Positions 3,518 through 37,465 of a stretch of DNA of 64,000 nucleotides are shown here, piece after piece. Where the stretch lies: contig JAFCGC010000001.1 in assembly GCA_017608305.1 (NCBI GenBank), positions 38,744 to 102,743 on the forward strand. Direction: 5' to 3'. Within the stretch, counting starts at the first letter, position 1; every line of letters starts with the position of its first letter. This stretch comes from Candidatus Pacearchaeota archaeon (lineage in GTDB: Archaea; Nanobdellota; Nanobdellia; Pacearchaeales; GW2011-AR1). Made by a program: the position numbers and the translations under genes. The notes beneath the pieces were generated by a model. That model was given only the letters and a program-made list of their open reading frames with translations, searched no databases and was not told the origin of the DNA.

Positions 3518-4035
3518 ATGCTACTTATTTCAATAAAAATCCCTTAGTAAGGGTATTTTTTAAGGCAAAAACAAATTTGGCTATTAGAATGCTAAATTTA
3601 AAAAAAAAGGATTCTATACTTGATTTTGGGTGTGGGGCTGGCTGGTTGAAGAATAAATTAAAGAAACAAGGATATAATGTGGTTGGATTTGATGTCACTC
3701 CAGAACATACAGATATAAAAGATTATAAAAAAGTAAAGGCCAATAAAATATTTGCATTAGATGTATTTGAACATATTTCAAAGGATAAAATAAAAGAAAT
3801 AATTAAAAATTTCAAAAAAAATCCTGTATTTGATCTTGTTGTGGCCATACCCACAGAAAATTTAATTTCAAGAAAGATAAGAAGACTTTGTGGGAAAAAA
3901 GAAAAAGTTCCAGATCACATAACTTCTCTAAAAGAAATAAAGGAAATTTTGAAAAAAGAAAAACTATGTCTTGTAAAAAAAATTAATTATTTTACTATAA
4001 GTCATCTGTTTTTATTCAGGAAGCCTTGTAATTGA
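3502..4035 (+). CDS. Class I SAM-dependent methyltransferase
   Basis: Motif I 'ILDFGCGAGW'. Size about 177 aa. Confidence 0.55.
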   Translation: MEDELNATYFNKNPLVRVFFKAKTNLAIRMLNLKKKDSILDFGCGAGWLKNKLKKQGYNVVGFDVTPEHTDIKDYKKVKANKIFALDVFEHISKDKIKEIIKNFKKNPVFDLVVAIPTENLISRKIRRLCGKKEKVPDHITSLKEIKEILKKEKLCLVKKINYFTISHLFLFRKPCN

Positions 4036-5656
4036 ATTCGTATATTATTAAAACAGGTTGTTCTCCTTGATAAAAAGCTTGAACAGGGGTTACTCTATCT
4101 GGATATTCTTGAGGATAATTTGGGGCCCAAGTATATCGGGAATTTGCTGCTTGTTCATACATTGAAAGTACAAGATATTTGGGTTTTTCTCTTTCAATAA
4201 ATTCATAAAAACCCGTAGCATTTTGAGGTTCCATTCCTCTCCTAGGAGCAAGATAAAAATTATAGGTGGGTCTTTCTGAATAATAGGTATTTTGGGGAGT
4301 AGATGCAGTAATTATAATATCATCAGGCTCGGAATTTGCTTTTATCCATTCTCCTGCTTGTTTGACTTCTAAAAAAGAAGGTTTTTTTGACTCAACTAAG
4401 TCATTTCCAAATTTCATATTTGGAGTGAGTAATAATAAAAGAGCGAGAAAAATAACTAAAAATGTGGCTTTTTTCCTTATTTTAAAACTTCTATGGATAT
4501 AATTAGCAAGTTTGGGAAGAGGGAAAATAGCAATTAAGAATAAAAAAGGAAGAGTTTGCATCATATACCTTTGTTCTAAATGAGGAGCAATACGTCCTAA
4601 GATTAAAAAACAAGAAACAATCCAAGTGAATATAAACAATCTTTTTTGAATTTTTTTATTTGAAAAAATCTTATCAAATCCTAAAACCAAATCTCCAAAA
4701 AAATAAATAACTCCTATGAGGAAAAGTATATAGATTGGACTAAATACAAACAAAGAACTATATCCTTTGGAATTTCCATCTAAAATATAAGGCAAATTTG
4801 TAAAATACACAAGAAGTTTTGAACTATCTCCAACCCCTCCTACTTCCCCTGTCTCTGAAATTCCTTCAACCCCAAAATAATAATTTAAAACATCTGAAAC
4901 CGGATTTCCAAAATGTGTTGTGTGCATAACCATTTGGGGGACAAAAATCAGGGCAAAAATACCTACTGCACCCCAAAGTTTTTTATTTTTTAGAAATTTG
5001 AATTTCTCTTTCATGAAAACCATTGTTAAAAAAGGGATAGCAAACATAGAATACTGCATTCTTGTTAAACAAGTTAAAGCAAAAAATAGGCCAAAAAGAT
5101 AAATAAATTTATTACCTTCTTTTAAAACATAACCTTTCCAAAAAAATAGAGTTGCCGTCAGTAGAAAAAAAGTTGCAGGGATATTTGTTAAGGGTCTTCC
5201 ACTGAAAAAGATATATATCCAAGAAGAAGCTAAAGCAAGTGAAGTGAGTAAGGCTAATTTGCTGTTAAACATCTTTTTTATTAAAAGATAAGAAACAAAA
5301 ATTATCCCTGTTGAAAATAAAACTATAAAAAATCTCAGGGTTATTTCTCCTAAACCTAGCTTGAATAAAATCGCACCAAATAAAGCCCAGAAAAAACCTC
5401 TCCGATAATACCACATATCAATAAGATTAGAGTTCACTCCTGCCCATTTTTTTGCTGTAGCAAGATAGTCTGCAGCATCCCACCATATTGCTTGGTCTTT
5501 TGTTTTAAGAAACATCCAAAATCTTGCTATAAAAGCTAAAATCAAAATTGCCAAGAAAGCTTTATCATAATTATTTTCTACCCAGCCAAATAATCTTTTT
5601 TTCCATTTGTTCTTTGTTTTTTCAATTGTTTCTTCTCTTCTTTCAGAGTCTGTCAT
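4016..5656 (-). CDS. Multi-pass membrane glycosyltransferase, GT-C fold (ArnT/PMT/dolichyl-phosphate-mannose mannosyltransferase-like)
   Basis: 546 aa with more than 10 hydrophobic segments. Sits in a glycan locus. Architecture resembles GT39/GT83. Confidence 0.5.
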   Translation of the reverse strand: MTDSERREETIEKTKNKWKKRLFGWVENNYDKAFLAILILAFIARFWMFLKTKDQAIWWDAADYLATAKKWAGVNSNLIDMWYYRRGFFWALFGAILFKLGLGEITLRFFIVLFSTGIIFVSYLLIKKMFNSKLALLTSLALASSWIYIFFSGRPLTNIPATFFLLTATLFFWKGYVLKEGNKFIYLFGLFFALTCLTRMQYSMFAIPFLTMVFMKEKFKFLKNKKLWGAVGIFALIFVPQMVMHTTHFGNPVSDVLNYYFGVEGISETGEVGGVGDSSKLLVYFTNLPYILDGNSKGYSSLFVFSPIYILFLIGVIYFFGDLVLGFDKIFSNKKIQKRLFIFTWIVSCFLILGRIAPHLEQRYMMQTLPFLFLIAIFPLPKLANYIHRSFKIRKKATFLVIFLALLLLLTPNMKFGNDLVESKKPSFLEVKQAGEWIKANSEPDDIIITASTPQNTYYSERPTYNFYLAPRRGMEPQNATGFYEFIEREKPKYLVLSMYEQAANSRYTWAPNYPQEYPDRVTPVQAFYQGEQPVLIIYEFNYKAS

Positions 5657-13548: not shown

Positions 13549-13554
13549 ACAAAA

Positions 13555-14244: not shown

Positions 14245-14245
14245 T

Positions 14246-19929: not shown

Positions 19930-19963
19930 AAATTTTTAAAAAGATTTAGATCTGAGAAAGGAA

Positions 19964-23301: not shown

Positions 23302-24813
23302 CTAATGTTTTTTTCTTTTTATTAAAATTTTAATGAGTTCTAAGTCTTCTTTTGTAATTGCCTTAAGAAAAAACATTGAAAGGAGATAAATAGAAGCACC
23401 AAAAAAGATGATCAAGGCTCCTGAAATTAGACTTAATTCATTAATTAATCTTAAAACAAGAGTTAATATGCCCCACATTATTATGCTTGATATTATTGGT
23501 TTTATAGTTGGTTTTAATGAAATTTTCATTTTAAATCTTCTTTTTGAAATTAAAAGGGCTGCAAAGAAATAAAATGTCCAACTCAAAAATGTTGCCATTC
23601 CTACTCCTATCATCGCCCATGAAGGAGATATTAATAATAAAAACTTGATAAAAATCAAATTGAGTAAGATATTTAACCCAACAGAAATTATTATTAATTT
23701 GGCAAATATTTTTGGTTTTTCTTTTGCAGAAAAAAAGGAAAGAAAAATACCTACAAAAACTATTGGGAAAATTAAAAATGCTAAAACATACAAGGGACAT
23801 GCTGATAAAAGGTAATCTTCCCCAAAAAGAAGCTTAATAAAATATCTTGCAAAAAGAATTAATCCAAATGAGCAAGGAAAACTCAACATTGCTACGTATT
23901 TTACTGCCCGATTTATAATTTTTTCTGAAACAAAATTATCTATTTTAGTGAAAACAGGCAAAAGAATTGCATTTGGAAATGAAGCAATAGTTGTTAATCC
24001 AAGAATAATTGAAAAAGCTGCTTGATAATACCCTACATATACTGTTGGAAGAAATAATCCCAACATAATTGAATCAATATAAGAGAAAAAAACTGCCGAA
24101 ACACTTGCAATAGTTATAAATTTGATAAAAGTTTTTATTTTTCTCTTATCTATCTTTTCTTTCGCTTTGTGATATATCTCAGGAATTAATTTTTTTAAAG
24201 AAAAAAGAACCCAAATAAGTACAATAAAATGAATAAAAGCTAATAAAAGAAAAATGGCAGTAATTTGATAAACTGAGGATACAAAATAAAAAATTAAAAG
24301 AACTAATCCCACTCTTAAAACTTGTGTTAAAAATTGTCTATAGCCCATATATTTTGCTTTTTCAATAGAATAAAACACTTGGGCATGAAACATATCAAAG
24401 GAAATTGCAACAACAAAAATTGGAGCAATTAAAAAAGGTAGAAAAAGGATAGGATTATCATAGAAATAAAACGCAAGAGGATATGCTAATAAAATTAAGA
24501 TAAAGAAAACAGAAAGAGTTAAAATTATTTTTATTTTAAGCAAATATTTATAATAAGAAGAAATTTTATTTTTATTTTTTTCTACAGCCTCAGACAAATA
24601 TCTTACTAAAGTGGAGCTTATTCCTAAATCAGCAAAAATAAAAAAAATCATAATTGTTGAAAAAACAATTGTATACATTCCATAACCTTCTGGCATTAAG
24701 AATCTCGCTAAAATTATTGTGAATGCTAGTCCCCCAAATCTATTTATTACTGTTGCAAATAAATTCCAAAAAGAATTTTTAACTAGCCTCTCTTTAAGAT
24801 TTATATTTTTCAT
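23302..24813 (-). CDS. Oligosaccharide/polysaccharide flippase (Wzx, MOP superfamily)
   Basis: 503 aa with about 12-14 TM segments. Glycan-locus context. Confidence 0.6.
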   Translation of the reverse strand: MKNINLKERLVKNSFWNLFATVINRFGGLAFTIILARFLMPEGYGMYTIVFSTIMIFFIFADLGISSTLVRYLSEAVEKNKNKISSYYKYLLKIKIILTLSVFFILILLAYPLAFYFYDNPILFLPFLIAPIFVVAISFDMFHAQVFYSIEKAKYMGYRQFLTQVLRVGLVLLIFYFVSSVYQITAIFLLLAFIHFIVLIWVLFSLKKLIPEIYHKAKEKIDKRKIKTFIKFITIASVSAVFFSYIDSIMLGLFLPTVYVGYYQAAFSIILGLTTIASFPNAILLPVFTKIDNFVSEKIINRAVKYVAMLSFPCSFGLILFARYFIKLLFGEDYLLSACPLYVLAFLIFPIVFVGIFLSFFSAKEKPKIFAKLIIISVGLNILLNLIFIKFLLLISPSWAMIGVGMATFLSWTFYFFAALLISKRRFKMKISLKPTIKPIISSIIMWGILTLVLRLINELSLISGALIIFFGASIYLLSMFFLKAITKEDLELIKILIKRKKH

Positions 24814-28282: not shown

Positions 28283-28696
28283 TCACCATTGCTTATTTCT
28301 AAAAACAATTATCTTTGTGCTAAGAAAATTCATGAATACAATTATTGGTTGAACAATTAAATTAGATATAATTGGGTTTAAGTCAAGAGATTCCACTAAA
28401 AAAGCTATTGAAAACATTGCGAAAGTGAAAGATATCCCATACACTAAAAAATATTGGGGGATTGTAACGAGATTTCTTCTTTTTGATCTAAAAGTATATA
28501 CTTTATTGAGTGCAAACCCTGCGATAACCCCAGATATAAAACTTATTGCTGCTGAAATCAGATAATTAATTGAAAAAAAGTAAAATAAAACAAAAAAGAC
28601 AATATATGCAAAGATAGTTATCAAAATTCCAACACCACAAAATCTTAAAAACTGTTTACTTACTTCTCTTTTAATTATATTCTGAAAAAACCCCAT
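28283..28696 (-). CDS. GtrA-family small membrane protein
   Basis: 'FLRFCGVGILITIFAYIVFF...' with 4 TM segments, about 137 aa. Confidence 0.6.
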   Translation of the reverse strand: MGFFQNIIKREVSKQFLRFCGVGILITIFAYIVFFVLFYFFSINYLISAAISFISGVIAGFALNKVYTFRSKRRNLVTIPQYFLVYGISFTFAMFSIAFLVESLDLNPIISNLIVQPIIVFMNFLSTKIIVFRNKQW

Positions 28697-28804
28697 TTAC
28701 TAATAATCTTCGATATCCTTATAAAGATATTGTAAGATAAATGATTTTTTATATGATTATGAAATGCATAAATCTTTTTAAAATTAAGAGAAGATGTCAA
28801 AAGA

Positions 28805-29743
28805 ATGAGTAAAAAGAGAAAAAAGGTAATAATTACAGGAGCTACAGGATTAGTTGGACTAAATCTTTTAACATTACTTGATTTTCAAAAATATGACATA
28901 ATAGCCATAAGTAAAGAAAAAACTAAAGAAAACTTACTCAAACAAATAAATTCTAAAATAAAGTTTGTTTGTGCAGACCTTTCTGTTTATGATGAAAAAT
29001 GGGTTGATTTTTTTAAAAGGGCTGACTGTGTTATACAATTACAAGCGCAAATTTCTGCGCCTGAAAAAGGACCTTATATTAAAAATAACATACTTTCTGT
29101 AAAAAATGTGGTTTTGGCTTGTGAAAAATACAAAATCAAACATCTTATTCATGTAAGTTCTTCTGTAGTTATTTCGATTGCAAAAGATAATTATACAAAT
29201 ACTAAGAAAACAGGAGAAAATTTAGTTGCCAAAAGCAATCTTCCTTACACTATTTTAAGACCTCCTTTAATGTATGGTCCTTTCAATACAAAACATCTTG
29301 AATTTATTATAAGAAAGTTTGATAAATTTCCTGTGGTCTTGTTCCCGGGAGATGGAAAATATCTAAGACAACCCTTGTATGTTGCAGATTTTGCTAAAAT
29401 TATTATTAAATTACTATCTAAAAAACCCAGGAGAAAAATATATGGGATAATAGGAAAAGAAAAGATCTATTTTATAGAACTAATAAAAATTATTTTTAGG
29501 GAGAAGAAACAGAAAAAAATTTTTGTAAAAATACCAATTTTTTTATTTATTTTTCTTCTTAAAATCTATGGTTTATTGACAGGAAAAAAGCCTTTTATAC
29601 CTGATCAATTGGATGCATTAACAGCAGGGGATCTTTTTCCTGTAACAAATTGGGAAAAAGAATTTGGAATTAAATATACTTCTTTTAGAGAAGGTATCAA
29701 AAAATCACTTGAATCAAAATATTGTACTATAAAAAACCAATAA
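28805..29743 (+). CDS. NAD-dependent epimerase/dehydratase (SDR)
   Basis: 'VIITGATGLVGLNL'. About 312 aa. Confidence 0.6.
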   Translation: MSKKRKKVIITGATGLVGLNLLTLLDFQKYDIIAISKEKTKENLLKQINSKIKFVCADLSVYDEKWVDFFKRADCVIQLQAQISAPEKGPYIKNNILSVKNVVLACEKYKIKHLIHVSSSVVISIAKDNYTNTKKTGENLVAKSNLPYTILRPPLMYGPFNTKHLEFIIRKFDKFPVVLFPGDGKYLRQPLYVADFAKIIIKLLSKKPRRKIYGIIGKEKIYFIELIKIIFREKKQKKIFVKIPIFLFIFLLKIYGLLTGKKPFIPDQLDALTAGDLFPVTNWEKEFGIKYTSFREGIKKSLESKYCTIKNQ

Positions 29744-31008
29744 AAATGAGGAAAAGAGTTCTTATTCTAGGGGCAGGGCTTTCTGGACTTGTTGCAGGGG
29801 AAATTTTATCAAAAAATTTTGAAGTTAAAATATTTGAAAAAGAATCTTTTTTAGGAGGTCTCGCAGCAAGCTTTGAACATGATGGGAAAAAAATACCAAG
29901 ATTTTATCACCACATAATAAAAAAGAACAAATATACCCAAGATTACTTTAAAAGATTTGGGGGAAAAGAAAAACTAAAGTGGAAAAAAATCAAAGTTGCA
30001 ATAGGAGTAAATGAAAAAGTTTCAATTATTAATTCTTTTTTAGGCCCTTTAAATTTTGATTATCTTAATTTCTATGAAAAAATTAGATTTGGATTATTTG
30101 GAATTTATTCATTATTGTTTATGAAACCTTATAAAATTCCAGAAGAAATGAATGCTGAAACTTGGTTAAAAAAATATGTTGGAAAGAATGTTACTCAAAA
30201 AGTTTTTTTTCATTTATACTCTAGAAACAAGTTTGGTATTCCTCTTAATAAAATTTCCGCAAAACAATTTGCTTATAGATTATCTGAAAAAGAAATTCAA
30301 GATAAATTTACTTTTCCAAAACAAGGATATCAATGTGTAATTGATGGGCTTGAAAAAGCAATAAAAAACAATAAAGGGATTATTAAGAAGGAAGCAAAAA
30401 TAAAAGAGATAAATGTAAAGAAAAAATATGTGATTGAATCAGGTAAAAAAATAAAATATGATATTTTAATCAATACTATTCCTTTTGAAATTTTTATAAA
30501 TTTATCAAAAGGTTTGCCTTCTGATTTGGAAAAGAATTTATCTAAAATAAAATATTGTCCTGGAGTCGGTTTTTGTTTTGGGTCTGAGAATTTCTTAAAA
30601 AAAGGTATTTATTGGACTAACATATTGAACGAGAGAGTCCATATAGTAATGCAACATTCTGATATTTGTGATGTTTATAGGGATAAAATAAATTGGTGTT
30701 TAAGATATGGGGAAAGTGAAGAAGATTTCAAGTTGGATGATGAAGATATCCAGAGAGAATATCTAAAAGTCATTAAAAAATATTTTCCAAAGGCAAAAAT
30801 TAAGTGGATAAAAGTCTTTAAAACAAAATATGGAGAACCAATATATGATATTGATTATCCAAAATATATGCCTAATTACAAATCTCCTGTTGAGGGATTG
30901 TATTTTGCTGGAATTCAACTAACATATCCAAAAATAAGAAACATGGATGTAGCATTAGAATCTGGCATTAAAGTTGCTAGAACAATTTTAAAGGATTTTC
31001 TTAAATAA
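29722..31008 (+). CDS. FAD/NAD(P)-binding oxidoreductase (amine-oxidase/UDP-galactopyranose-mutase-like Rossmann)
   Basis: 'RVLILGAGLSGLVAGEIL...FEKESFLGG' dinucleotide-binding motif. Confidence 0.45.
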   Translation: MYYKKPIKMRKRVLILGAGLSGLVAGEILSKNFEVKIFEKESFLGGLAASFEHDGKKIPRFYHHIIKKNKYTQDYFKRFGGKEKLKWKKIKVAIGVNEKVSIINSFLGPLNFDYLNFYEKIRFGLFGIYSLLFMKPYKIPEEMNAETWLKKYVGKNVTQKVFFHLYSRNKFGIPLNKISAKQFAYRLSEKEIQDKFTFPKQGYQCVIDGLEKAIKNNKGIIKKEAKIKEINVKKKYVIESGKKIKYDILINTIPFEIFINLSKGLPSDLEKNLSKIKYCPGVGFCFGSENFLKKGIYWTNILNERVHIVMQHSDICDVYRDKINWCLRYGESEEDFKLDDEDIQREYLKVIKKYFPKAKIKWIKVFKTKYGEPIYDIDYPKYMPNYKSPVEGLYFAGIQLTYPKIRNMDVALESGIKVARTILKDFLK

Positions 31009-32031
31009 CCCTAAAATCCCTTGGCTCCAAGCGACTCTATGAGTAACTCCTGTTCCTCCAAGAAGAAATTTATTGTCAAGATACCATTGATATGATCTAA
31101 TAAGAGCCTTAGAATTACTATATTTAGGTTTCCAACCCAGATTTTTCTTGATTTTATCTATTGAAACAAAAGAATCTTTTTCGGCAGTTCCATAAACCCA
31201 CTTATAAAGTGGGGAAATTTTGAGGATATCAAAAAATCTTAAGGCCAAAATAACAGGAGCTGCTGGAGTTCTCAGAACTTTTGCACCAGAATTAGCAAAA
31301 TTACATAGTGATGAAACATCTTCCAAAACTGTTCTAAACTCTTCTGCACCCACATTGAAAGTGTCGTTTGCTTTAGATTTAGGATTAGTTAATGTTAAAT
31401 GAATTGCATCAACCAAATCTTCGACTTCTAATAATTGGTACTTATTTTTTCCATTCCCTATTATAGGTATTTTTTTTCCATTTTCTACCCAATCATATAA
31501 AATCTGAAATACTCCTAATCTTGCAGTGCCAATAAAAGTTTTAGGCCGAATTATAGGCACACACAACCCTTTAGACCTATATTTTTCACATAATTTTTCA
31601 GATATTATTTTAGTCTCTCCATAGGGTCCTACCCCTATTCTTGGGTCTTCTTCATAAATAGGATGTTTTTTTGGAACACCATATACTGCTGTAGAGGAAA
31701 TAAACACAACTCTTTTTACTCTATTTTGAAGGGCAGATTCTAAGATATTTTTAGTTCCCCCCACATTAACCTCCCAAATTGTTTGTTTTTTATACAAAGG
31801 AAGAGCAGCGGCACCATGAATTATAAAATCTGGGTTTTCTTTTTTAATTAAATCATTTATTTTTTGTTTATTTCTCACATCTATTTTAAAATATTCTACA
31901 TTATCTGCATACTCTTCTTTATGAAATTCGTCTATGTCCATTACAATTATCTTCTTAAATTTAGGAGCGAGTTTCTTACAGATGTGATAGCCTAAAAATC
32001 CTGCGCCCCCAGTAACCACCAATTTTGTCAT
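30988..32031 (-). CDS. NAD-dependent nucleotide-sugar epimerase/dehydratase
   Basis: 'LVVTGGAGFLGYHI' and 'YGETK'. Confidence 0.65.
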   Translation of the reverse strand: MTKLVVTGGAGFLGYHICKKLAPKFKKIIVMDIDEFHKEEYADNVEYFKIDVRNKQKINDLIKKENPDFIIHGAAALPLYKKQTIWEVNVGGTKNILESALQNRVKRVVFISSTAVYGVPKKHPIYEEDPRIGVGPYGETKIISEKLCEKYRSKGLCVPIIRPKTFIGTARLGVFQILYDWVENGKKIPIIGNGKNKYQLLEVEDLVDAIHLTLTNPKSKANDTFNVGAEEFRTVLEDVSSLCNFANSGAKVLRTPAAPVILALRFFDILKISPLYKWVYGTAEKDSFVSIDKIKKNLGWKPKYSNSKALIRSYQWYLDNKFLLGGTGVTHRVAWSQGILGLFKKIL

Positions 32032-32081
32032 AAATAAAAACTTGAAGAAAGGTATTTAAAGATTATTCGTATGTTTCATAT

Positions 32082-32945
32082 ATGTTTGGTTTTAAGGATT
32101 TTTTAAGATTATTGAGGGTTGAACAATGGTATAAGAATATAATAATTTTTATTTCAATAATTTTTACATCTAATCTTTTTAATCAAAAAATGTTGTTTTT
32201 GACCCTACTTGGATTTATTTCTCTTTGTTTTATCTCTTCTTCATCATACATAATTAATGATATTTTAGATAGGGAAAAAGACAAAAACCACCCAGAAAAA
32301 AAGAATAGGCCAATAGCTTCTGGTAAAATAAAAAAATCTGGTGCAATAACTGTCTCTCTTTTACTATTTATTGCCTCAATATTAATAGCATGTAATCTGT
32401 CTTTTCTTTTTCTGTACTCTGTATTGGGGTTGTTTATTCTATCTCAAATTTATAGTCTTTATATAAGAAGTATTGCATTTTTAGACATAATTTTCATATC
32501 ATTTAATTTTATTATTAGGGCTATTTCAGGGGCATTTATAATTGAAAAAGGCTTTCCAATATCTTTTTGGGTAGTATTATGTACTTTTTTCTTGTCAATG
32601 TTTTTAGTTAGTTTGAAAAGATCCTTGGAAATTGATTTAAAAGATGCAAAAAAATATCGTCCTAGTTTTAAAGAGAGGGATAAAAAAACTTTAGAAATTT
32701 TATCTATTGTTGCTATTACTTGTGTTTTTATTTTCTTTTGTATATACAGTATTTTGTTTGAAAAACCCTATTTATTAATAAGCGTTCCAATTGCATTATA
32801 TATTATTTTAATGTTTTTTCAGGGTTTTTATAATTGTCCTGAAAAAATTAGAAATCCTGAAAAATTCATTTTCCAGAAAAAAATTATCACGGCAATTATA
32901 CTCTGGATTCTTACTATAATAATAGGATTCTACATTATTACCTAA
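32082..32945 (+). CDS. UbiA-family prenyltransferase (polyprenyl-phosphate sugar-phosphate transferase candidate)
   Basis: 'NDILDREKDKNHP' (NDxxDxxxD). 8-9 TM segments. Confidence 0.6.
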   Translation: MFGFKDFLRLLRVEQWYKNIIIFISIIFTSNLFNQKMLFLTLLGFISLCFISSSSYIINDILDREKDKNHPEKKNRPIASGKIKKSGAITVSLLLFIASILIACNLSFLFLYSVLGLFILSQIYSLYIRSIAFLDIIFISFNFIIRAISGAFIIEKGFPISFWVVLCTFFLSMFLVSLKRSLEIDLKDAKKYRPSFKERDKKTLEILSIVAITCVFIFFCIYSILFEKPYLLISVPIALYIILMFFQGFYNCPEKIRNPEKFIFQKKIITAIILWILTIIIGFYIIT

Positions 32946-33381
32946 ATAAGAAAGCAAGAATAAAAGAAACTATTCCCAACATGATTCCCCCAACAACATC
33001 AACCCAATCATGCTTTTTTAAATATATTCTAGAATAAATAACTAAAAAACTCAAAATCAAAATTAAGGATAAAATCCAAAGATTATTTAAAAAATTAAAA
33101 ACCAAGAAAATAAAAAGAAAGGTGGTTCTGGCTGTGTGAATACTTGGAAAAGAAGAAGCATCTATTTTTTCTATAAAATTGTTGTGTTTAATTTTTTTGG
33201 GACGAGGTTTAAAATAAAATAAACGTATCAATAAAGTAACTGCATAAATTATTACTAAACCAGCAACTAATTGGGTAAGAAAGATATATTCTTTATTAAA
33301 TAAGAAATAAAGAGAGAAAATAATGTAAAATAAAATTCCCCCTAAAAAAGTTAATTCCTCGAAAAATTTTTTTATGATCAT
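32938..33381 (-). CDS. PAP2-family phosphatase
   Basis: 'KPRPKK', 'SFPSIHTA' and 'SRIYLKKHDWVDVVGG' motifs. Confidence 0.6.
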   Translation of the reverse strand: MIIKKFFEELTFLGGILFYIIFSLYFLFNKEYIFLTQLVAGLVIIYAVTLLIRLFYFKPRPKKIKHNNFIEKIDASSFPSIHTARTTFLFIFLVFNFLNNLWILSLILILSFLVIYSRIYLKKHDWVDVVGGIMLGIVSFILAFLFR

Positions 33382-33382
33382 T

Positions 33383-34426
33383 TTAATCCTTGAAATAGAG
33401 TTTATAATTTGGGTGATCTTTTAATCTTACTGGAACTTGTTTCACTTTGCTCAAAGGATTTAACCATTTTTCTCTAAATTCCTTATTAAATGTGTGCTTA
33501 CAAATTGATTTTTCCCTTATTAAAGGATGTTGAATAAATCTTTTATAGATTTCTTTTAGAGGTTCTTCTAAAATATTTCCAAAACTTATTTGACAAAAAG
33601 TACATTGCATAACATCTCCATAACAAGTAATATAGAGTTTTTCTATTCCTCCAGGACATAAATTAGGTCCTCTATAATTGTAAGAAGTATCACTCCTTGC
33701 AAGCGGATGTTTTTGTAAAAAACCATAATAATAATTCTTAAATTCAGTTAATCGAAGCTCTGCTTTTCCTGTAAGTTTCCCTGTTGGAGCAGCTAAATTT
33801 AGTAAAGTAAAAAGATTGTATTTTTCACACCACCTAGTTAATTCTTCTATATCTTCTTTGTTGTAGGTCCCAAAACAAGTATTGATACAAACATTTAGCC
33901 CTTCTTCTTGAGCAATAGGTATTAAAGATTTTATTTTTTCCAAATTTCCAGGATCTTTCACAATCTTATCATGAATTTTAGGATTTAAGGATTGCAAATT
34001 AAAAAGAACTGAGTTTAATCCTGCTTTTCTTAATTCTCTTAACCATTTTCTATCAAGCAGTTTTGCATTTGTTGCAATTGAAACTATTCTGTCTTTTTCT
34101 TTAGTTATATGAGCGATTAATTTTTTCAAAAAATCTAGGCCTTTAAGGGTGGGTTCTCCCCCAGTTAAATCAAAATGTGTACATCCAAGACCCTTTAGCT
34201 GATCAACAGCATCACACCATTGATTAAGAGACATTTCCTGTTTTTTTTGAAGAAGGAAGTTGCTAGAACACATCTCACAATTATGATTGCACACAAAAGT
34301 CAAAGCTAGTTGACAATTTCTTACCCTATTTTGACCTAATTTTGCCTTGATAACTCCTTCTGCTAACCTAAATGTGGCTTTTGGAGTTTTAGTCAAAAAT
34401 CTCATGTGTTTTAATAAAGAGGTCAT
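33383..34426 (-). CDS. Radical SAM/SPASM domain protein
   Basis: 'FVCNHNCEMCSS'. C-terminal 'CPGG...CYGDVMQCTFCQ'. Confidence 0.7.
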   Translation of the reverse strand: MTSLLKHMRFLTKTPKATFRLAEGVIKAKLGQNRVRNCQLALTFVCNHNCEMCSSNFLLQKKQEMSLNQWCDAVDQLKGLGCTHFDLTGGEPTLKGLDFLKKLIAHITKEKDRIVSIATNAKLLDRKWLRELRKAGLNSVLFNLQSLNPKIHDKIVKDPGNLEKIKSLIPIAQEEGLNVCINTCFGTYNKEDIEELTRWCEKYNLFTLLNLAAPTGKLTGKAELRLTEFKNYYYGFLQKHPLARSDTSYNYRGPNLCPGGIEKLYITCYGDVMQCTFCQISFGNILEEPLKEIYKRFIQHPLIREKSICKHTFNKEFREKWLNPLSKVKQVPVRLKDHPNYKLYFKD

Positions 34427-34538
34427 TTTCTTAGTAGATATTGCAAAAAGAAAAACCTTTGGTCTATAAAAAGATTATTATTATAGATAGTTATTTTAAA
34501 TACAAATCTTTTTAAAATTAGGAAAAGAATTCAGAATA

Positions 34539-35885
34539 ATGGAGAAAAAAGATAAGATAATCTTAATTCTTTTTGCACTCGGATTGATTTTGTTTGCAAT
34601 ATTTACTACAAAAATAGGTTTTCATGATTCTTATGAATATATCACTATTGCAAAAAATTTTGCAGGAATAGAAAATGTAAATCTTTTTAGCGGGCATTCC
34701 CTAATGTACCCTCTTATTATATCTATATTTCTAAAAATATGGCCCAGTTTTATAATGGTAAAATTTGTTAATGTTTTATGGGTTTTTCTTATTGCAGCCA
34801 TACTCTTATTTTGGTTAAAAAATAAAAAAGCTTTTCTTCTTTTTGTTTTTTCCCCTTTAACATGGTATGTTGGAGTTCAAACAACCCCTATTCTTCCTGC
34901 AAGTTTTTTCTTTTTACTTGCTTTTTTATTTTTTTATAAAAAAGATATCAGATTTAATCTAATTTATTCTGGAATTTTTTTCGGGCTGGCTTGTGCATTT
35001 TATACTCCTATGATTTTGGTTGCAGGAATTTTCATTTTAGTTTATTTTTGGAAAAAGCCTTTAGTTGAGATAATAAAATACTCTTTAGCATTATTTGTAG
35101 GATTTATTCCTAGACTTCTTCAAGACTATTATCTGTTTAAAATGCCAATATATTCTTTAATAAGATATTTTGGATCTAATTTTATTATTAGTTTTGGGCT
35201 ACATCCTAGTACTCCTGAAGTATTATTTCTATCTAATTTAGGGATTTTTCTTATTGTTTTGCTTATTTCACCATTTTTATTTAAAATTTACAAAATGGGT
35301 TTTCATAAAGATAAAGCACTAGTTATTTTCTTGGTTATAAGCGGGTTACTTTTTCTCTTGAAAACAGCAAAATTAAAGTATTTCCTAATTCTTTCACCAA
35401 TAATCTTAATCATACTGAGTAGTAGATTAAGTGAAAAACAAATAAAATGGCATTGTATTTTATCTGTTTTTTTAGTAATTTTTATGTGTTGGAATTTTTT
35501 TATTGTTGGGGAAGATAGAATTATAAGAAAAGATATTAACAATATCATTCAAGAATATGATGTTGATTATATTGTGGTTGGACCTTATGAAGCGCTTAAA
35601 TTTGGGGTTTCTTCTTGGCAAAATCAACCTTATTTTGTGTGGTGGCAAGATTTTACGACTAGTTTAAAAAATGAGACCAGAATAAGAGGGTATGATTTTA
35701 AATTTGATTCTAAAATTCCTCTGAAAGATAAATTAGAGATTAGTGCTTCATTCAATAGATTTGAAGAAAAATCTTATGAAAATTATATTCTAGTAACAAA
35801 ACAAGAATTTCCAGAACTTTCTGAATTTAGATTAGATAAATGTTATGAGAAACTATGTGTATATCAAAAAAATGAAAACAATTAG
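34539..35885 (+). CDS. Polytopic membrane protein, probable GT-C-type glycosyltransferase
   Basis: More than 10 TM segments in the first 320 aa, followed by a soluble C-terminal region. Confidence 0.35.
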   Translation: MEKKDKIILILFALGLILFAIFTTKIGFHDSYEYITIAKNFAGIENVNLFSGHSLMYPLIISIFLKIWPSFIMVKFVNVLWVFLIAAILLFWLKNKKAFLLFVFSPLTWYVGVQTTPILPASFFFLLAFLFFYKKDIRFNLIYSGIFFGLACAFYTPMILVAGIFILVYFWKKPLVEIIKYSLALFVGFIPRLLQDYYLFKMPIYSLIRYFGSNFIISFGLHPSTPEVLFLSNLGIFLIVLLISPFLFKIYKMGFHKDKALVIFLVISGLLFLLKTAKLKYFLILSPIILIILSSRLSEKQIKWHCILSVFLVIFMCWNFFIVGEDRIIRKDINNIIQEYDVDYIVVGPYEALKFGVSSWQNQPYFVWWQDFTTSLKNETRIRGYDFKFDSKIPLKDKLEISASFNRFEEKSYENYILVTKQEFPELSEFRLDKCYEKLCVYQKNENN

Positions 35886-36570
35886 TAGAGTAAAACAAAA
35901 AGGAGAAATTGTCAAAAAAATATATGAAAATAGGTTTTCTAAAACAATTTTATTTAGAAATGAAATTTATAAAATTCTTTGTGATAATTTTTTTCAAAAA
36001 TATGTTCCTAGGAATTCTGTTGTTTTAGATGTTGGGGCAGGATATTGTGAATTCATAAATAACATAAAAGCTAAGACAAAAATTGCTTTAGATTTAAATC
36101 CTGATGTTAAAAAATTTGCAAGAGAAGGGGTAACCCCTATTATTTCTAGTTGTACAAGTATGAAAAAAATAAAAAGTAATAGTGTTGGGGTTATATTTGT
36201 GAATAATCTTTTTGAACATTTAACAAAACAAGAAATTGTTAAAACAATTAAAGAAATCTATAGGGTTTTGGGAAATAAAGGAAGATTATTGGTTCTTCAA
36301 CCCAATATAAGATATTGTTATAAAGATTATTGGATGTTCTTTGACCATATAACTCCTATAGATGATAGGGGTTTGTGTGAAGTTTTAAGGACTAATAATT
36401 TTAAAATAGTAAGATGCAAACCAAAATTTCTTCCATATACAACAAAAAGTAGATTATCAAATCTTCCTAGTTTTTTTTTAAAATTATATCTTAAAGTCCC
36501 TATTTTATCGGGGATTATGCAAAAAATTTTAGGAAAACAAGCTTTTATTTTTGCCATAAAAGATATCTAA
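35845..36570 (+). CDS. Class I SAM-dependent methyltransferase
   Basis: 'VLDVGAGYCEF'. Confidence 0.55.
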   Translation: MRNYVYIKKMKTISRVKQKGEIVKKIYENRFSKTILFRNEIYKILCDNFFQKYVPRNSVVLDVGAGYCEFINNIKAKTKIALDLNPDVKKFAREGVTPIISSCTSMKKIKSNSVGVIFVNNLFEHLTKQEIVKTIKEIYRVLGNKGRLLVLQPNIRYCYKDYWMFFDHITPIDDRGLCEVLRTNNFKIVRCKPKFLPYTTKSRLSNLPSFFLKLYLKVPILSGIMQKILGKQAFIFAIKDI

Positions 36571-36571
36571 A

Positions 36572-37465
36572 CTATCCTATGCTTTTAAAACGCAAATTTT
36601 CTTTATTAAAATCTTGGTTGTCTGATGTTGCTCCTGCAATATTTAACCAATTTTTATCTGATCTAACTCTCTCATTTGATCTCCACATTTCTTCAAGAAG
36701 ATAAGGCCTATACATGTTTTCTCTAGCTAAATAAATTAATGCGTTTAAATCTTTTGGGAGACATTTACCTCCAAACCCAAAATCTCCATCAGGCCCTGGA
36801 ACTCGTAAATGAGTACCTATTCTTTTATCTAATTCTACCACTTTTTTCACTATTTGATAATCTACCCCTACATATTTACAAACTTGATACAATTCATTTG
36901 CCAAAGAAACTTGTCCTACTAAGAAAACATTGTTACAATATTTTATCATTTCTGCGGTTTTTCTGTCTACATTAATATATCTTGCATAAGGAAAAATAGG
37001 AAAATAAACTTGCTGAACTTTTTGAAAATCTTCTAGAGTAGAAGTTCCTATAACAACATAATCTGTATTTTCCATGTCTTGTACAGCGTTTTCTTCTGTT
37101 AAAAATTCAGGATTAAAGGCAATACGGAACTTAAATTTTTCAGTCAGTTTATCTGTTGTTCCTGAAACTGCTGTTGAACGAATAACAATCAGAATATCTT
37201 GAGGATTTCTCCCACATTTCTCTACGGCTTGGGTAAGCTGTTCCATTGAATTATGAACTGGAGAATAATCTATTTCTCCACTTGGTTTCATTGGAGTTGG
37301 GACACAAAGAAAAATAATTTCAGAATTTTCAGCTAAAAATCTAAGATTCTCTTCTGTATTGTAAGGTTCTTTATATTTATCATAAGGAAAAACTTCATGT
37401 GCTCTTTCAATAATTTGCTTAGTTGCCCCTCCTACAACACCTACCCCAATAAATCCTATTTTCAT
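36572..37465 (-). CDS. Nucleotide-sugar (UDP-glucose/GDP-mannose-type) dehydrogenase, unusually short (297 aa)
   Basis: 'MKIGFIGVGVVGG'. Catalytic Cys loop 'GFGGKCLPKD'. No obvious C-terminal UDP-binding domain. Confidence 0.55.
   Translation of the reverse strand: MKIGFIGVGVVGGATKQIIERAHEVFPYDKYKEPYNTEENLRFLAENSEIIFLCVPTPMKPSGEIDYSPVHNSMEQLTQAVEKCGRNPQDILIVIRSTAVSGTTDKLTEKFKFRIAFNPEFLTEENAVQDMENTDYVVIGTSTLEDFQKVQQVYFPIFPYARYINVDRKTAEMIKYCNNVFLVGQVSLANELYQVCKYVGVDYQIVKKVVELDKRIGTHLRVPGPDGDFGFGGKCLPKDLNALIYLARENMYRPYLLEEMWRSNERVRSDKNWLNIAGATSDNQDFNKENLRFKSIG

What the first reader, a model, noticed from the sequence alone, without database searches (positions are those of the whole stretch)
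28283..33381. Module resembling the mycobacterial decaprenyl-phospho-arabinose donor pathway (GtrA-SDR-FAD oxidoreductase-SDR-UbiA-PAP2)
Six adjacent genes encode a GtrA-like small membrane protein, two extended-SDR epimerase/reductases, an FAD Rossmann oxidoreductase, a UbiA-family polyprenyl transferase (NDxxDxxxD) and a PAP2 phosphatase.

Established knowledge: the Corynebacterineae DPA pathway uses a UbiA 5-phosphoribosyl transferase, a PAP2 phosphatase, an FAD oxidase plus an SDR reductase for 2'-epimerisation, and a GtrA-like protein.

Inference: this archaeon builds a polyprenyl-phosphate-linked pentose or other epimerised sugar donor. Such a donor would feed the two GT-C membrane glycosyltransferases in the island (4016..5656, 34539..35885). 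The FAD enzyme here is Rossmann-type, not VAO-type like DprE1, so this would be an analogous rather than an orthologous solution.
Basis: inference. Interest (0 to 1): 0.65.

Follow-up and report, generated by a model that had tools for sequence, protein, structure and literature searches.

The report
Archaeal lipid-linked pentose sugar donor module
A tiny DPANN archaeon carries a conserved gene cluster that most likely builds a ribose-derived sugar on a membrane lipid carrier and transfers it to the cell surface, as mycobacteria do for arabinose, but it remodels the sugar with an uncharacterised flavoenzyme/reductase pair that some soil bacteria also carry.

Summary
The six genes are real and lie at the stated coordinates. 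The only correction is the FAD gene start, which is probably the ATG at 29746.

- **UbiA:** it groups with PRPP-dependent polyprenyl-phosphate phosphoribosyltransferases. Its best PDB hit is M. tuberculosis Rv3806c, and that enzyme's PRPP/Mg contact residues are invariant in 114 homologues. It does not group with DGGGP or menaquinone prenyltransferases.
- **FAD enzyme:** it has a phytoene-desaturase/protoporphyrinogen-oxidase-like fold. It is not VAO-type and not closest to UGM. It just passes NCBI's cut-off for the uncharacterised family PRK07233.
- **Module extent:** the module extends to a neighbouring 448-aa protein with no Pfam hit (34539-35885). A confident model shows it is a GT-C glycosyltransferase. 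A methyltransferase (35845-36570) probably belongs too.
- **Conservation:** in 31 DPANN loci with full flanks, the FAD gene has the UbiA within 6 kb in 27 and a GT-C candidate in 28.
- **New finding:** SDR1 followed by the PRK07233 FAD gene is a cross-domain cassette. Rhizobium, Agrobacterium and Burkholderia plasmids carry UbiA, DprE1-like, DprE2-like, SDR1-like, PRK07233 and GtrA in one operon. The cassette therefore coexists with DprE1/E2-like genes and probably performs a different tailoring step. SDR2 homologues flank PPPRS genes in haloarchaea and rhizobia.

Verdict: a new variant of a known kind of system. The identity of the sugar is unresolved.

The parts
28283..28696 (-). GtrA-family small membrane protein; candidate flippase for the lipid-linked sugar
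   Evidence: PF04138, E 6.6e-21. A GtrA gene closes the homologous bacterial operons. In DPANN loci it was detected near the FAD gene in only 3 of 31, so it is a variable component.
28805..29743 (+). SDR1: extended SDR with NDUFA9-like features, the upstream partner of the FAD enzyme
   Evidence: PF01370. It is 38% identical over its full length (E 8e-70) to the Rhizobium SDR immediately upstream of the PRK07233 FAD gene. The S118-120/Y130/K134 triad is invariant in 28 DPANN and 4 bacterial orthologues. PDB relatives include complex-I NDUFA9. Its stop lies 2 bp before the FAD ATG.
29746..31008 (+). FAD-dependent oxidoreductase of the uncharacterised family PRK07233, with a phytoene-desaturase/protoporphyrinogen-oxidase-like fold
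   Evidence: NF005560: 256.7 bits against a cut-off of 252. Bacterial operon members score 510-548 bits on the same model. AlphaFold model pLDDT 94.3. Best Foldseek hits are rice PDS 5mog (TM 0.83) and PPOX; UGM ranks 37th. Cross-domain invariant residues: G9, G11, G14, E31, H55, W79, K162, R178, W290, N292, R398.
30988..32031 (-). SDR2: GalE-like extended SDR; candidate single-enzyme epimerase, or the reductase partner of the FAD enzyme
   Evidence: PF01370, E 1.7e-40. Best PDB hit is GalE-1, 3ehe, E 1e-22. Homologues at 46-48% identity occur in haloarchaea, where the one inspected lies next to a PGAP-named DPPRS gene. Homologues at 31-35% occur in the HAD-UbiA clusters of Rhizobium CCGE531 and NGR234.
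32082..32945 (+). UbiA-superfamily polyprenyl-phosphate 5-phosphoribosyltransferase (PPPRS/DPPRS type)
   Evidence: NCBIfam DPPRS models score 175.9, 133.8 and 99.5 bits and PRK08238 scores 150.8, against 63.7 or less for other prenyltransferases. Best PDB hit is Rv3806c, 8j8j, E 1.6e-20. The equivalents of R22, K28, Y70, N73, D77, K87 and Y138 are invariant in 114 homologues; R90 is kept in 110 of 114 (K in 3); K143 is R or K, and Y157 is F (residue roles from PMC10994848).
32938..33381 (-). PAP2 lipid phosphatase; candidate 5'-phosphoribose phosphatase (the Rv3807c role) or carrier-lipid pyrophosphatase
   Evidence: PF01569, E 6.7e-18. Weak matches to undecaprenyl-diphosphatase models. Best PDB hit is LpxE. 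It lies adjacent to UbiA in L001, L003 and L007-L011.
33383..34426 (-). Radical SAM/SPASM protein; membership uncertain
   Evidence: PF04055 plus PF13186. It is wedged between PAP2 and the GT-C (1 bp from PAP2), but no orthologue is conserved in related loci (only 28-37 bit hits). L001 has a B12-radical-SAM gene at the equivalent place.
34539..35885 (+). TM448: GT-C-fold membrane glycosyltransferase from a family with no Pfam hit, found only in DPANN; the predicted user of the lipid-linked donor
   Evidence: No Pfam or NCBIfam hit. All 78 homologues are unnamed or labelled hypothetical, from DPANN or metagenomes. Model pLDDT 91.6. The top 15 Foldseek PDB hits are all GT-C enzymes (ALG9, ArnT at TM 0.60-0.62, ALG12, Pmt, EmbB/C, ALG3), and everything below them is noise. 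D30 is invariant and H29, E33 and Y34 are near-invariant, matching the spacing of the essential D31/E34/Y35 of GT136 ORF12. It lies next to the module in L001, L003 and L007-L011.
35845..36570 (+). Class I SAM methyltransferase; probable accessory member
   Evidence: PF08241. It is 35% identical over its full length (E 2e-49) to the Burkholderia methyltransferase immediately upstream of the UbiA operon. An orthologue lies near the FAD gene in L016 (306 bits). PRK07233-like FAD domains occur fused to class I methyltransferases.

Best explanation
The cluster at 28283-36570 encodes a PRPP-derived, lipid-linked pentofuranose glycosylation system in a DPANN archaeon.

Proposed sequence of steps:
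1. The UbiA-type enzyme transfers 5-phosphoribose from PRPP to a polyprenyl or dolichyl phosphate. This rests on homology and on conservation of the PRPP-contact residues.
2. The PAP2 phosphatase removes the 5'-phosphate. This is inferred by analogy with Rv3807c.
3. Up to two tailoring units remodel the ribofuranosyl head group by oxidation and reduction while it is still lipid-bound. One unit is the tightly coupled SDR1 + PRK07233 flavoenzyme pair (oxidase plus NAD(P)H reductase). The other is the GalE-like SDR2. A methyltransferase may add a further modification. This step is inferred, and neither the carbon attacked nor the final sugar is known.
4. GtrA flips the donor to the outer face of the membrane (inferred).
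5. The GT-C enzyme TM448 transfers the pentofuranose to a surface glycan or glycoprotein. The fold is shown; the donor and acceptor are inferred.
For: **UbiA is a PRPP-type transferase**
- NCBIfam DPPRS models outscore every prenyltransferase model by more than 110 bits.
- The best PDB hit is Rv3806c, at E 1.6e-20 against 1e-7 for an archaeal UbiA.
- Nine of the twelve Rv3806c PRPP/Mg contacts listed in PMC10994848 are identical in the window protein (seven invariant across 114 homologues), and two more are conservatively replaced (K143 to R/K, Y157 to F).

**TM448 is a GT-C enzyme**
- The model is confident and its top 15 PDB hits are exclusively GT-C enzymes.
- It has a DxxEY motif after TM1, like GT136.

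**Linkage in DPANN genomes**
- In 31 loci with full flanks, the FAD gene has UbiA within 6 kb in 27, a GT-C candidate in 28 and both in 24.
- The full gene order is conserved in L001, L003 and L007-L011.

**Cross-domain context**
- Rhizobium, Agrobacterium and Burkholderia plasmids carry the operon (methyltransferase)-HAD-UbiA-DprE1-like-DprE2-like-SDR1-like-PRK07233-GtrA.
- A haloarchaeal plasmid has a PGAP-named DPPRS gene beside an SDR2 homologue and a GT-C gene.
- The Rhizobium CCGE531 locus is listed by Kelly et al. as a candidate three-component system. It has an SDR2 homologue with a HAD-UbiA and a GMC flavoenzyme.
- Flavoenzymes of three different folds (VAO, GMC, PRK07233) are therefore found next to PPPRS genes. 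This favours a role on the sugar.

**The tailoring enzymes look catalytically competent**
- The SDR1 catalytic triad and several polar FAD-enzyme residues (H55, K162, R178, N292, R398) are invariant across both domains.
Against: - No biochemistry exists for any component.
- UbiA falls below the curated DPPRS cut-off (175.9 against 234 bits).
- The flavoenzyme's nearest structures act on hydrophobic isoprenoid or tetrapyrrole substrates, not on sugars.
- PAP2 and GtrA were detected near the FAD gene in only 5 and 3 of 31 DPANN loci.
- One DPANN clade has only TM448-FAD-UbiA, with no SDR within 10 kb. The flavoenzyme therefore does not strictly need a neighbouring reductase.
- PAP2 could equally be a carrier-lipid pyrophosphatase.
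- No pentofuranose-containing archaeal glycan turned up in my literature searches.
Confidence: 0.72

Rival explanations
1. The PRK07233 flavoenzyme plus an SDR is a fold-independent functional replacement for DprE1/DprE2. It carries out 2'-epimerisation, so the donor is polyprenyl-phospho-D-arabinofuranose.
For: - No DprE1-like or DprE2-like gene occurs in the window or in 64 DPANN loci.
- The oxidase and reductase genes are tightly coupled (2 bp apart here; 4-bp overlaps in L001 and L003), like dprE1-dprE2.
- Arabinofuranose is the best-known product of such pathways.
Against: In four proteobacterial operons the orthologous SDR1 + PRK07233 pair sits directly downstream of DprE1-like and DprE2-like genes. 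The VAO-type enzyme's best NCBIfam match is DprE1 (NF053785) and the classical SDR also matches DprE2 (NF053786), both below cut-off. Two 2'-epimerases in one operon would be redundant, so the cassette more likely acts at another position.
Confidence: 0.22
2. The SDR1 + PRK07233 cassette acts at a carbon other than C2', most simply C3'. It would convert ribofuranose to xylofuranose. Combined with SDR2 in DPANN, or with DprE1/E2-like enzymes in the bacteria, it would give the doubly inverted lyxofuranose, or a methylated derivative.
For: - The cassette coexists with DprE1/E2-like genes in bacteria.
- A 3'-epimerase (ORF13, an SDR) is the documented route to lipid-linked Xylf.
- Kelly et al. note that Lyxf would need inversion at both centres and has not been seen.
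- Methyltransferases are linked to the system by synteny and by fusion.
Against: - This is pure inference from gene content, with no chemistry behind it.
- C3' epimerisation is already achieved by a single SDR in Citrobacter, so a two-enzyme route is not obviously needed.
- Other reactions, such as C5' oxidation or desaturation of a keto intermediate, are equally allowed.
Confidence: 0.3
3. The flavoenzyme works on the lipid and not on the sugar. It would desaturate, saturate or isomerise the polyprenyl/dolichyl carrier used by the UbiA enzyme, as its structural relatives do with isoprenoids.
For: - The closest structures are phytoene desaturase and protoporphyrinogen oxidase; a fatty-acid isomerase is also among the hits.
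- NCBIfam gives weak similarity to HpnE and the CrtI family.
- Some DPANN loci have FAD + UbiA + GT-C with no SDR.
- Archaeal carriers are partly saturated dolichols (my own general knowledge).
Against: - The same cassette occurs in proteobacteria, which use unmodified undecaprenyl phosphate. There it is embedded between DprE2-like and GtrA genes.
- Its constant partner where present is an NAD(P) SDR with an intact catalytic triad.
- Flavoenzymes of two other folds that act on alcohols occupy similar positions in other PPPRS clusters.
- Several invariant residues are charged or polar.
Confidence: 0.1
4. The genes are neighbours with unrelated functions. UbiA would be a membrane-lipid or quinone prenyltransferase, the SDRs would be nucleotide-sugar enzymes of the surrounding glycan island, and the FAD enzyme would be a UGM-like or amine oxidase.
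For: - The window is a dense glycan-biosynthesis island with many other SDR, glycosyltransferase and aminotransferase genes.
- The genes lie on alternating strands.
- A 44%-identical UbiA stands alone in L005.
Against: - UbiA scores 39 bits or less on DGGGPS models and 26 or less on MqnP models, and it has the PRPP contact residues.
- The FAD enzyme has no GLF domain.
- FAD-UbiA linkage holds in 27 of 31 loci.
- The same gene families co-occur in bacteria and haloarchaea.
Confidence: 0.04

Closest known systems
Decaprenyl-phospho-arabinose (DPA) pathway of Corynebacterineae (Rv3806c, Rv3807c, DprE1/DprE2, Rv3789, GT-C arabinosyltransferases) and its rhizobial counterpart noeC(N)HOP
   Same: A UbiA-type PRPP transferase with the same PRPP/Mg contact residues, a separate PAP2 phosphatase, a GtrA-family small membrane protein, an FAD oxidoreductase plus NAD(P) SDR, and a GT-C transferase.
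   Different: - There is no VAO-type DprE1 and no classical-SDR DprE2.
- In their place are a PDS/PPOX-fold PRK07233 flavoenzyme and two extended SDRs.
- The GT-C belongs to a family with no Pfam hit.
- The host is an archaeon, so the carrier is probably a dolichyl-type lipid.
- The product sugar is unknown.
Three-component extracytoplasmic pentofuranose systems (Kelly et al. 2024, PNAS; C. youngae ORF15 PPPRS-PRP, ORF14 MATE flippase, ORF12 GT136, ORF13 epimerase)
   Same: - The logic matches: a lipid-phospho-ribofuranose made from PRPP, optional cytoplasmic epimerase(s), a flippase and a GT-C.
- TM448 shares the DxxEY motif after TM1, and ArnT is among its closest structures, as it is for GT136.
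- SDR2 homologues occur in a locus that the paper lists.
   Different: - The phosphatase is PAP2 and not a fused HAD domain.
- The flippase candidate is GtrA and not MATE.
- There is an extra flavoenzyme/SDR cassette.
- The paper treats bacteria only and does not describe this type of flavoenzyme.
Uncharacterised proteobacterial operon UbiA(HAD)-DprE1-like-DprE2-like-SDR-PRK07233-GtrA (Agrobacterium salinitolerans pDG3-1a, Rhizobium tumorigenes pRt1078, Rhizobium sp. CB3090, Burkholderia stagnalis plas2)
   Same: - Orthologous SDR1 (38% identity, E 8e-70), with the SDR gene followed by the FAD gene in the same order.
- A FAD enzyme of the same NCBIfam family.
- A UbiA at 29% identity.
- GtrA, and in Burkholderia an orthologous methyltransferase.
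   Different: - The bacterial operons also carry DprE1/E2-like genes and a HAD-fused UbiA.
- They lack SDR2, PAP2 and TM448.
- All their genes are co-directional.
Haloarchaeal DPPRS locus (Halostagnicola larsenii XH-48 megaplasmid)
   Same: An archaeal UbiA named decaprenyl-phosphate phosphoribosyltransferase by PGAP (it passes NF008977), beside an SDR2 orthologue (47.5% identity) and a GT-C gene.
   Different: - There is no PRK07233 flavoenzyme, SDR1, PAP2 or GtrA.
- A PHP phosphoesterase and an LPG_synthase_TM protein are present instead.
- The GT-C is a Mannosyl_trans4 type and shows no sequence relationship to TM448.

Membership tests
DPA pathway (Corynebacterineae type) | UbiA-superfamily PRPP:polyprenyl-phosphate 5-phosphoribosyltransferase carrying the PRPP/Mg2+ contact residues of Rv3806c | tested here: met
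   Best PDB hit is 8j8j, E 1.6e-20. The equivalents of R22, K28, Y70, N73, D77, K87 and Y138 are invariant in 114 homologues; R90 is kept in 110 of 114; K143 is R or K and Y157 is F.
DPA pathway (Corynebacterineae type) | UbiA passes the curated NCBIfam cut-off for decaprenyl-phosphate phosphoribosyltransferase | tested here: not met
   NF008977 scores 175.9 bits against a cut-off of 234. The haloarchaeal relative does pass, at 240.5 bits.
DPA pathway (Corynebacterineae type) | VAO-type FAD oxidase DprE1 | tested here: not met
   The FAD enzyme here is PF01593, with a PDS/PPOX-like fold. A DprE1-like query found nothing in the window or in 64 DPANN loci.
DPA pathway (Corynebacterineae type) | Classical short-chain reductase DprE2 | tested here: not met
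   Both SDRs are extended PF01370 types. A DprE2-like query found nothing.
DPA pathway (Corynebacterineae type) | PAP2 phosphatase (Rv3807c role) and GtrA-family protein (Rv3789 role) | tested here: inconclusive
   Both Pfam families are present and adjacent. Orthology to Rv3807c and Rv3789, and substrate, were not tested. Both are only sporadically linked in DPANN loci.
Three-component pentofuranose systems (Kelly et al. 2024) | PPPRS generating a lipid-phospho-ribofuranose, with a HAD-type phosphoribose phosphatase domain | tested here: not met
   The UbiA is a stand-alone 287-aa protein with no HAD domain. PAP2 is the candidate phosphatase. The PPPRS part itself is met.
Three-component pentofuranose systems (Kelly et al. 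2024) | MATE-family flippase | tested here: not met
   No MATE gene lies in the module. GtrA is present instead. A Wzx-like Polysacc_synt gene lies at 23302-24813, but it is not part of the conserved set.
Three-component pentofuranose systems (Kelly et al. 2024) | GT-C glycosyltransferase of CAZy family GT136 | tested here: inconclusive
   The GT-C fold is shown and the DxxEY motif is shared. I could not obtain a GT136 sequence for a direct comparison.
NCBIfam NF005560 / PRK07233 (uncharacterised FAD oxidoreductase) | Full-length match above the curated cut-off | tested here: met
   256.7 bits against a cut-off of 252, covering model positions 2-431 of 435. Bacterial operon members score 510-548 bits.
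UDP-galactopyranose mutase | GLF domain; closest structural relatives are UGMs | tested here: not met
   There is no GLF hit. UGM 4dsg is rank 37, behind PDS, PPOX and amine oxidases.
Archaeal DGGGP synthase / menaquinone or ubiquinone prenyltransferases | Best profile match to those subfamilies | tested here: not met
   DGGGPS models score 39.2 and 33.7 bits, MqnP 26 and 19, and UbiA 44 bits, against 175.9 for DPPRS.
GT-C fold glycosyltransferases | Multi-helix membrane domain with an extracytoplasmic insert after TM1 carrying a conserved acidic residue, and structural similarity to solved GT-C enzymes | tested here: met
   Model pLDDT 91.6. The top 15 PDB hits are all GT-C enzymes. D30 is invariant.

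The most novel reading that the evidence does not exclude
The SDR1 + PRK07233 pair is a previously unrecognised, cross-domain, two-enzyme epimerase or tailoring system for lipid-linked pentofuranoses. It would act at a position other than C2'. DPANN archaea, using it with SDR2, and certain rhizobia and Burkholderia, using it with DprE1/E2-like enzymes, would then decorate their surfaces with xylofuranose. They might even use the doubly inverted D-lyxofuranose or a methylated derivative. According to Kelly et al., lyxofuranose has not been found in any solved glycan structure.
Probability: 0.2. Interest if true: 0.75.

Novelty: new variant of a known kind. Interest (0 to 1): 0.58.

Why it matters
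- **Extension to Archaea.** PRPP-derived lipid-linked pentofuranose donors are known from mycobacteria, where the pathway is a major drug target, and were recently generalised to Gram-negative O antigens. This locus extends the logic to Archaea, specifically DPANN organisms whose surface chemistry is essentially unknown and probably mediates attachment to hosts.
- **Three concrete uncharacterised targets.**
  - PRK07233, a flavoenzyme family (823 clusters at 50% identity reach E ≤ 1e-10) whose genomic context now points to a substrate.
  - Its obligate-looking SDR partner.
  - A GT-C family with no Pfam model.
- **Convergent recruitment.** If the cassette is an epimerase, it is a third or fourth independent flavoenzyme solution (VAO, GMC, PRK07233) to the same problem. 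It would also widen the set of pentofuranoses expected in microbial glycans.

Tried and rejected
2. I tried to fetch a GT136-type GT-C from the phage collection, using a HAD-UbiA query, for a direct comparison with TM448. Only a 6.6-kb fragment matched, so GT136 membership remains untested.
3. A viral-contig scan with the FAD family found nothing.
4. The iterated profile started from the 546-aa GT-C (4016-5656) picked up many ~590-aa membrane proteins near the FAD gene, but only 1 of 10 had a PMT_2 hit. I do not treat them as relatives of the 546-aa protein. A separate hhalign test showed they share the N-terminal catalytic region with TM448 (93% probability, E 3.4e-7). They also have a marginal AftA hit at E 0.013. 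They therefore count only as GT-C candidates.
5. TM448 against the haloarchaeal Mannosyl_trans4 GT-C gave no detectable relationship.
6. The fused methyltransferase domains of long PRK07233-like proteins are related to the window's methyltransferase only at the generic class I level (E 3e-4 or worse). The fusion evidence is therefore weak.
7. Literature searches for PRK07233, for archaeal DPPRS/DprE homologues and for archaeal pentofuranose systems found nothing relevant.
8. I considered and rejected a quinone- or carotenoid-type pathway (UbiA + methyltransferase + FAD enzyme). The reasons are the PRPP signature, the GtrA/PAP2/GT-C partners, and the DprE1/E2-like genes in the bacterial operons.

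Full report
**1. Observation**

The window is AT-rich, about 28% G+C. It is archaeal: it encodes an Rpb3-like RNA polymerase subunit and a DUF655 protein. Close homologues of its proteins come from Nanoarchaeota, Pacearchaeota and Woesearchaeota MAGs, which are DPANN lineages.

They carry the stated domains:
- GtrA: PF04138.
- Two extended SDRs: PF01370.
- An FAD enzyme: PF01593 plus PF13450.
- UbiA: PF01040, with NDxxDxxxD at N59-D67.
- PAP2: PF01569.

The database copy of the FAD protein is 420 aa. The real start is therefore probably the ATG at 29746, 2 bp after the SDR1 stop.

**2. The UbiA enzyme**

The result comes out clearly on the DPPRS side.
- NCBIfam DPPRS models score 175.9, 133.8 and 99.5 bits, and the PRK08238 model (482 positions, HAD-UbiA length) scores 150.8. 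The next unrelated prenyltransferase scores 63.7 bits, DGGGPS models 39 or less, and MqnP models 26 or less.
- The score is below the curated DPPRS cut-off of 234, so this is a divergent relative and not an equivalog.
- The best solved structure by sequence is M. tuberculosis Rv3806c (8j8j, E 1.6e-20). The archaeal UbiA 4tq3 reaches only 1e-7.
- The Rv3806c structure paper lists the residues that contact PRPP and Mg2+. It states that the phosphoribose-binding residues are not conserved in classical UbiA enzymes (PMC10994848).
- In an alignment of 114 DPANN homologues, the equivalents of R22, K28, Y70, N73, D77, K87 and Y138 are invariant, and R90 is kept in 110 of 114 (K in 3). K143 is R or K. 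Y157 is F, a replacement the paper notes in some mycobacteria. Q135 is displaced by one position.

I conclude that this is a PRPP:polyprenyl-phosphate phosphoribosyltransferase. The conclusion rests on homology and a conserved active site, not on an assay.

**3. The flavoenzyme**

- It passes the cut-off of NCBIfam NF005560 (PRK07233, named only 'hypothetical protein') at 256.7 against 252 bits, over the full length of the model.
- A 40-sequence alignment gave a confident model, with pLDDT 94.3.
- Foldseek places it nearest rice phytoene desaturase (TM 0.83, 20% identity), then protoporphyrinogen oxidases and amine oxidases. UGM first appears at rank 37.
- It is therefore neither VAO-type (DprE1) nor specifically UGM-like.
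- An exhaustive search of 1.84 billion representatives found 823 clusters at E ≤ 1e-10.

**4. The module is larger than the finding**

- The adjacent 448-aa protein at 34539-35885 has no Pfam or NCBIfam hit. All its homologues are unnamed or labelled hypothetical.
- Its model is confident, with pLDDT 91.6.
- Its 15 best PDB matches are all GT-C glycosyltransferases that use polyprenyl- or dolichyl-phosphate sugar donors: ALG9, ArnT (TM 0.60-0.62), ALG12, Pmt1/4, EmbB/C and ALG3. Everything below them is noise.
- The family has an invariant D30 and near-invariant H29, E33 and Y34 just after TM1. The spacing matches the essential D31/E34/Y35 of the ribofuranosyltransferase ORF12, the founder of GT136.
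- The next gene, a class I methyltransferase at 35845-36570, is 35% identical over its full length to a methyltransferase directly upstream of the homologous Burkholderia operon.
- The radical SAM/SPASM gene between PAP2 and the GT-C has no conserved orthologue in related loci.

**5. Conservation in DPANN genomes**

- Two contigs found through UbiA homologues carry SDR1, FAD, SDR2, UbiA and PAP2 plus the 445-aa GT-C; GtrA is present in L003 but not near the module in L001 (L001 and L003).
- A scan of 185,579 species genomes with the FAD alignment returned 59 loci. All are DPANN-type MAGs, although some carry automated labels.
- With single-sequence searches, UbiA is present in 40 of 59 loci, SDR2 in 26, SDR1 in 25 and TM448 in 18.
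- Among the 31 loci with at least 6 kb on both sides of the FAD gene, UbiA lies within 6 kb in 27, a GT-C candidate in 28, both in 24 and an SDR in 17. PAP2 is found in only 5 and GtrA in only 3.
- Three architectures recur: the full set, as in this window; UbiA-FAD-SDR1-SDR2 plus a ~590-aa membrane protein; and a minimal TM448-FAD-UbiA.
- The ~590-aa proteins lack Pfam hits. They align to the N-terminal catalytic region of the TM448 family at 93% probability (E 3.4e-7), with GGDxY falling on HDxxEY. They also give a marginal hit to the arabinofuranosyltransferase AftA at E 0.013.
- The evolutionary core is therefore flavoenzyme + PPPRS + GT-C. The SDRs, phosphatase and flippase candidate are variable additions.

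**6. Cross-domain context, the main new result**

*The proteobacterial operon*
- A tblastn search of 72,556 plasmids with the flavoenzyme gave one hit at E ≤ 1e-10, in Rhizobium sp. CB3090.
- The same search with SDR1 gave seven hits.
- In Agrobacterium salinitolerans, Rhizobium tumorigenes, Rhizobium sp. CB3090 and Burkholderia stagnalis the same co-directional operon recurs: (methyltransferase)-HAD-UbiA-'FAD-binding oxidoreductase'-SDR-'NAD-dependent epimerase/dehydratase'-'NAD(P)/FAD-dependent oxidoreductase'-GtrA.
- The last flavoenzyme in that operon scores 510-548 bits on PRK07233. The first flavoenzyme's best NCBIfam match is DprE1 at 372.6 bits; the short SDR matches PRK07102 best (247.4 bits) and then DprE2 (160.6 bits). 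All three are below their cut-offs.
- The window's SDR1 is 38% identical over its full length (E 8e-70) to the epimerase-family protein immediately upstream of PRK07233. SDR2 matches that protein only weakly, at E 1e-6.
- SDR1 followed by PRK07233 is therefore a conserved two-gene cassette shared by archaea and bacteria. In both it is attached to a PRPP-type UbiA and a GtrA.
- In the bacteria it coexists with a DprE1/E2-like pair.
- No DprE1-like or DprE2-like gene was found in the window or in 64 DPANN loci.

*SDR2*
- SDR2 is GalE-like.
- It has 46-48% identical homologues on haloarchaeal megaplasmids. It has 31-35% identical homologues on rhizobial symbiosis plasmids.
- In Halostagnicola larsenii the homologue lies between a gene that PGAP names decaprenyl-phosphate phosphoribosyltransferase and a GT-C gene. 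That UbiA passes NF008977 and is 28% identical to the window's UbiA.
- In Rhizobium sp. CCGE531 and S. fredii NGR234 the homologue sits with an SMR-family transporter gene and a small adjacent unnamed gene, a GMC flavoenzyme, a 658-aa protein with no Pfam hit, another extended SDR and a HAD-UbiA. Kelly et al. list the CCGE531 accession as a candidate system.

**7. Mechanism**

*Shown*
- The domain and fold identities.
- The PRPP signature in UbiA.
- Intact catalytic motifs in SDR1. The PAP2 motifs were read by eye.
- The conserved linkage.

*Inferred*
- UbiA makes a lipid-phospho-5-phosphoribose.
- PAP2 removes the 5'-phosphate, as Rv3807c does. It could instead recycle the carrier pyrophosphate.
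- The SDR1/flavoenzyme pair and SDR2 remodel the ribofuranose on the lipid.
- GtrA flips the donor.
- TM448 transfers the sugar.

*What the flavoenzyme acts on*

In favour of an action on the sugar:
- Flavoenzymes of three different folds (VAO, GMC, PRK07233) occupy similar positions in PPPRS clusters.
- The flavoenzyme's partner is a catalytically intact NAD(P) SDR, encoded 2 bp away here and overlapping by 4 bp in L001 and L003.
- Its cross-domain invariant residues include H55, K162, R178, N292 and R398.

Against:
- Its structural neighbours handle isoprenoids.
- One DPANN clade has no SDR nearby.

*Which carbon is attacked*

This is unresolved. The bacterial operons make simple redundancy with DprE1/E2 unlikely. 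I rate a distinct step, such as C3', above 2'-epimerisation, but neither is demonstrated.

**8. Comparison and novelty**

- The system works like the mycobacterial DPA pathway and like the three-component pentofuranose systems of Kelly et al..
- It is not a member of either in the strict sense. DprE1, DprE2, the HAD phosphatase domain and the MATE flippase were all tested and are absent.
- I found no paper describing such a system in archaea, and none on PRK07233. RefSeq does already name haloarchaeal UbiA proteins as DPPRS.
- I class it as a new variant of a known kind. The new elements are the archaeal host, an uncharacterised cross-domain flavoenzyme/SDR cassette and a GT-C family with no Pfam hit.

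**9. Limits**

- All functional statements are computational.
- Only 64 kb of the genome was visible, so a DprE1/E2-like pair elsewhere in the genome cannot be excluded.
- Fold comparisons used Foldseek against the PDB only.
- GT136 membership could not be tested.
- The GT-C status of the ~590-aa family rests on a single profile-profile match.

Noticed in passing
window 12889-17795: A phosphonate-type gene set. It comprises a PEP mutase fused to a cytidylyltransferase (16473-17795, -), a TPP enzyme resembling phosphonopyruvate decarboxylase (15346-16476, -), an Fe-alcohol dehydrogenase (14246-15349, -), an NTP transferase (13555-14244, -) and a CDP-alcohol phosphatidyltransferase-like gene (12889-13548, +). 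Together they suggest phosphonate decoration of glycans or lipids in this DPANN archaeon.
   Followed up: no
window 5681-7075 (-): A single ORF fuses a GT9 (heptosyltransferase-family) domain to a C-terminal NUDIX hydrolase domain.
   Followed up: no
window 18064-20854: An RmlB-like dehydratase is fused to an RmlA-like nucleotidyltransferase in one 621-aa ORF. It is followed by a GT6-family glycosyltransferase, a family mostly known from animals and a few bacteria.
   Followed up: no
window 74-1165, 10065-11603, 22440-23300, 33383-34426: Four radical SAM genes lie scattered through the glycan island: three with SPASM domains and one B12-binding. L001 has a B12-radical-SAM gene between UbiA and PAP2. 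Radical SAM enzymes recur near the FAD gene in 16 of 31 loci, but not as orthologues.
   Followed up: partly
window 43119-43901: A LAGLIDADG-domain ORF (43233-43901, -) directly abuts the 5S rRNA gene (43119-43234, +).
   Followed up: no
window 60906-61679 (-): A serine recombinase (Resolvase plus Recombinase domains) near the end of the window, possibly marking a mobile element.
   Followed up: no
L005:10001-10864: A UbiA 44% identical to the window's, from a Woesearchaeota MAG, stands alone with none of the module genes within 10 kb. Either the partners are dispersed there, or this clade has a different role.
   Followed up: no
proteins P0334, P0350, P0358, P0389: PRK07233-like FAD domains occur fused at the C-terminus to a class I SAM methyltransferase (three cases) or to a GT2 glycosyltransferase (one case). 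This links the flavoenzyme family to methylation and glycosylation. The fused methyltransferases resemble the window's methyltransferase only generically.
   Followed up: partly
L070 (Halostagnicola larsenii XH-48 plasmid NZ_CP007056.1, 218832-237869): A cultured haloarchaeon carries a DPPRS gene, a PHP phosphoesterase, an LPG_synthase_TM protein, an SDR2 orthologue and a Mannosyl_trans4 GT-C side by side. It would be a tractable organism for testing archaeal lipid-linked pentofuranose synthesis.
   Followed up: partly
L071 (S. fredii NGR234 pNGR234a, 297530-316534) and L069 (Rhizobium sp. CCGE531): On symbiosis plasmids close to nodS/nodU, a HAD-UbiA cluster uses a GMC-family flavoenzyme together with two extended SDRs, an SMR-family transporter gene with a small adjacent unnamed gene, and a 658-aa protein with no Pfam hit. 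This is a third flavoenzyme fold associated with PPPRS genes.
   Followed up: partly
window 36572-37465 (-): A UDP-glucose/GDP-mannose dehydrogenase-family ORF of only 297 aa. It has the N-terminal and central domains but apparently lacks the usual C-terminal domain.
   Followed up: no
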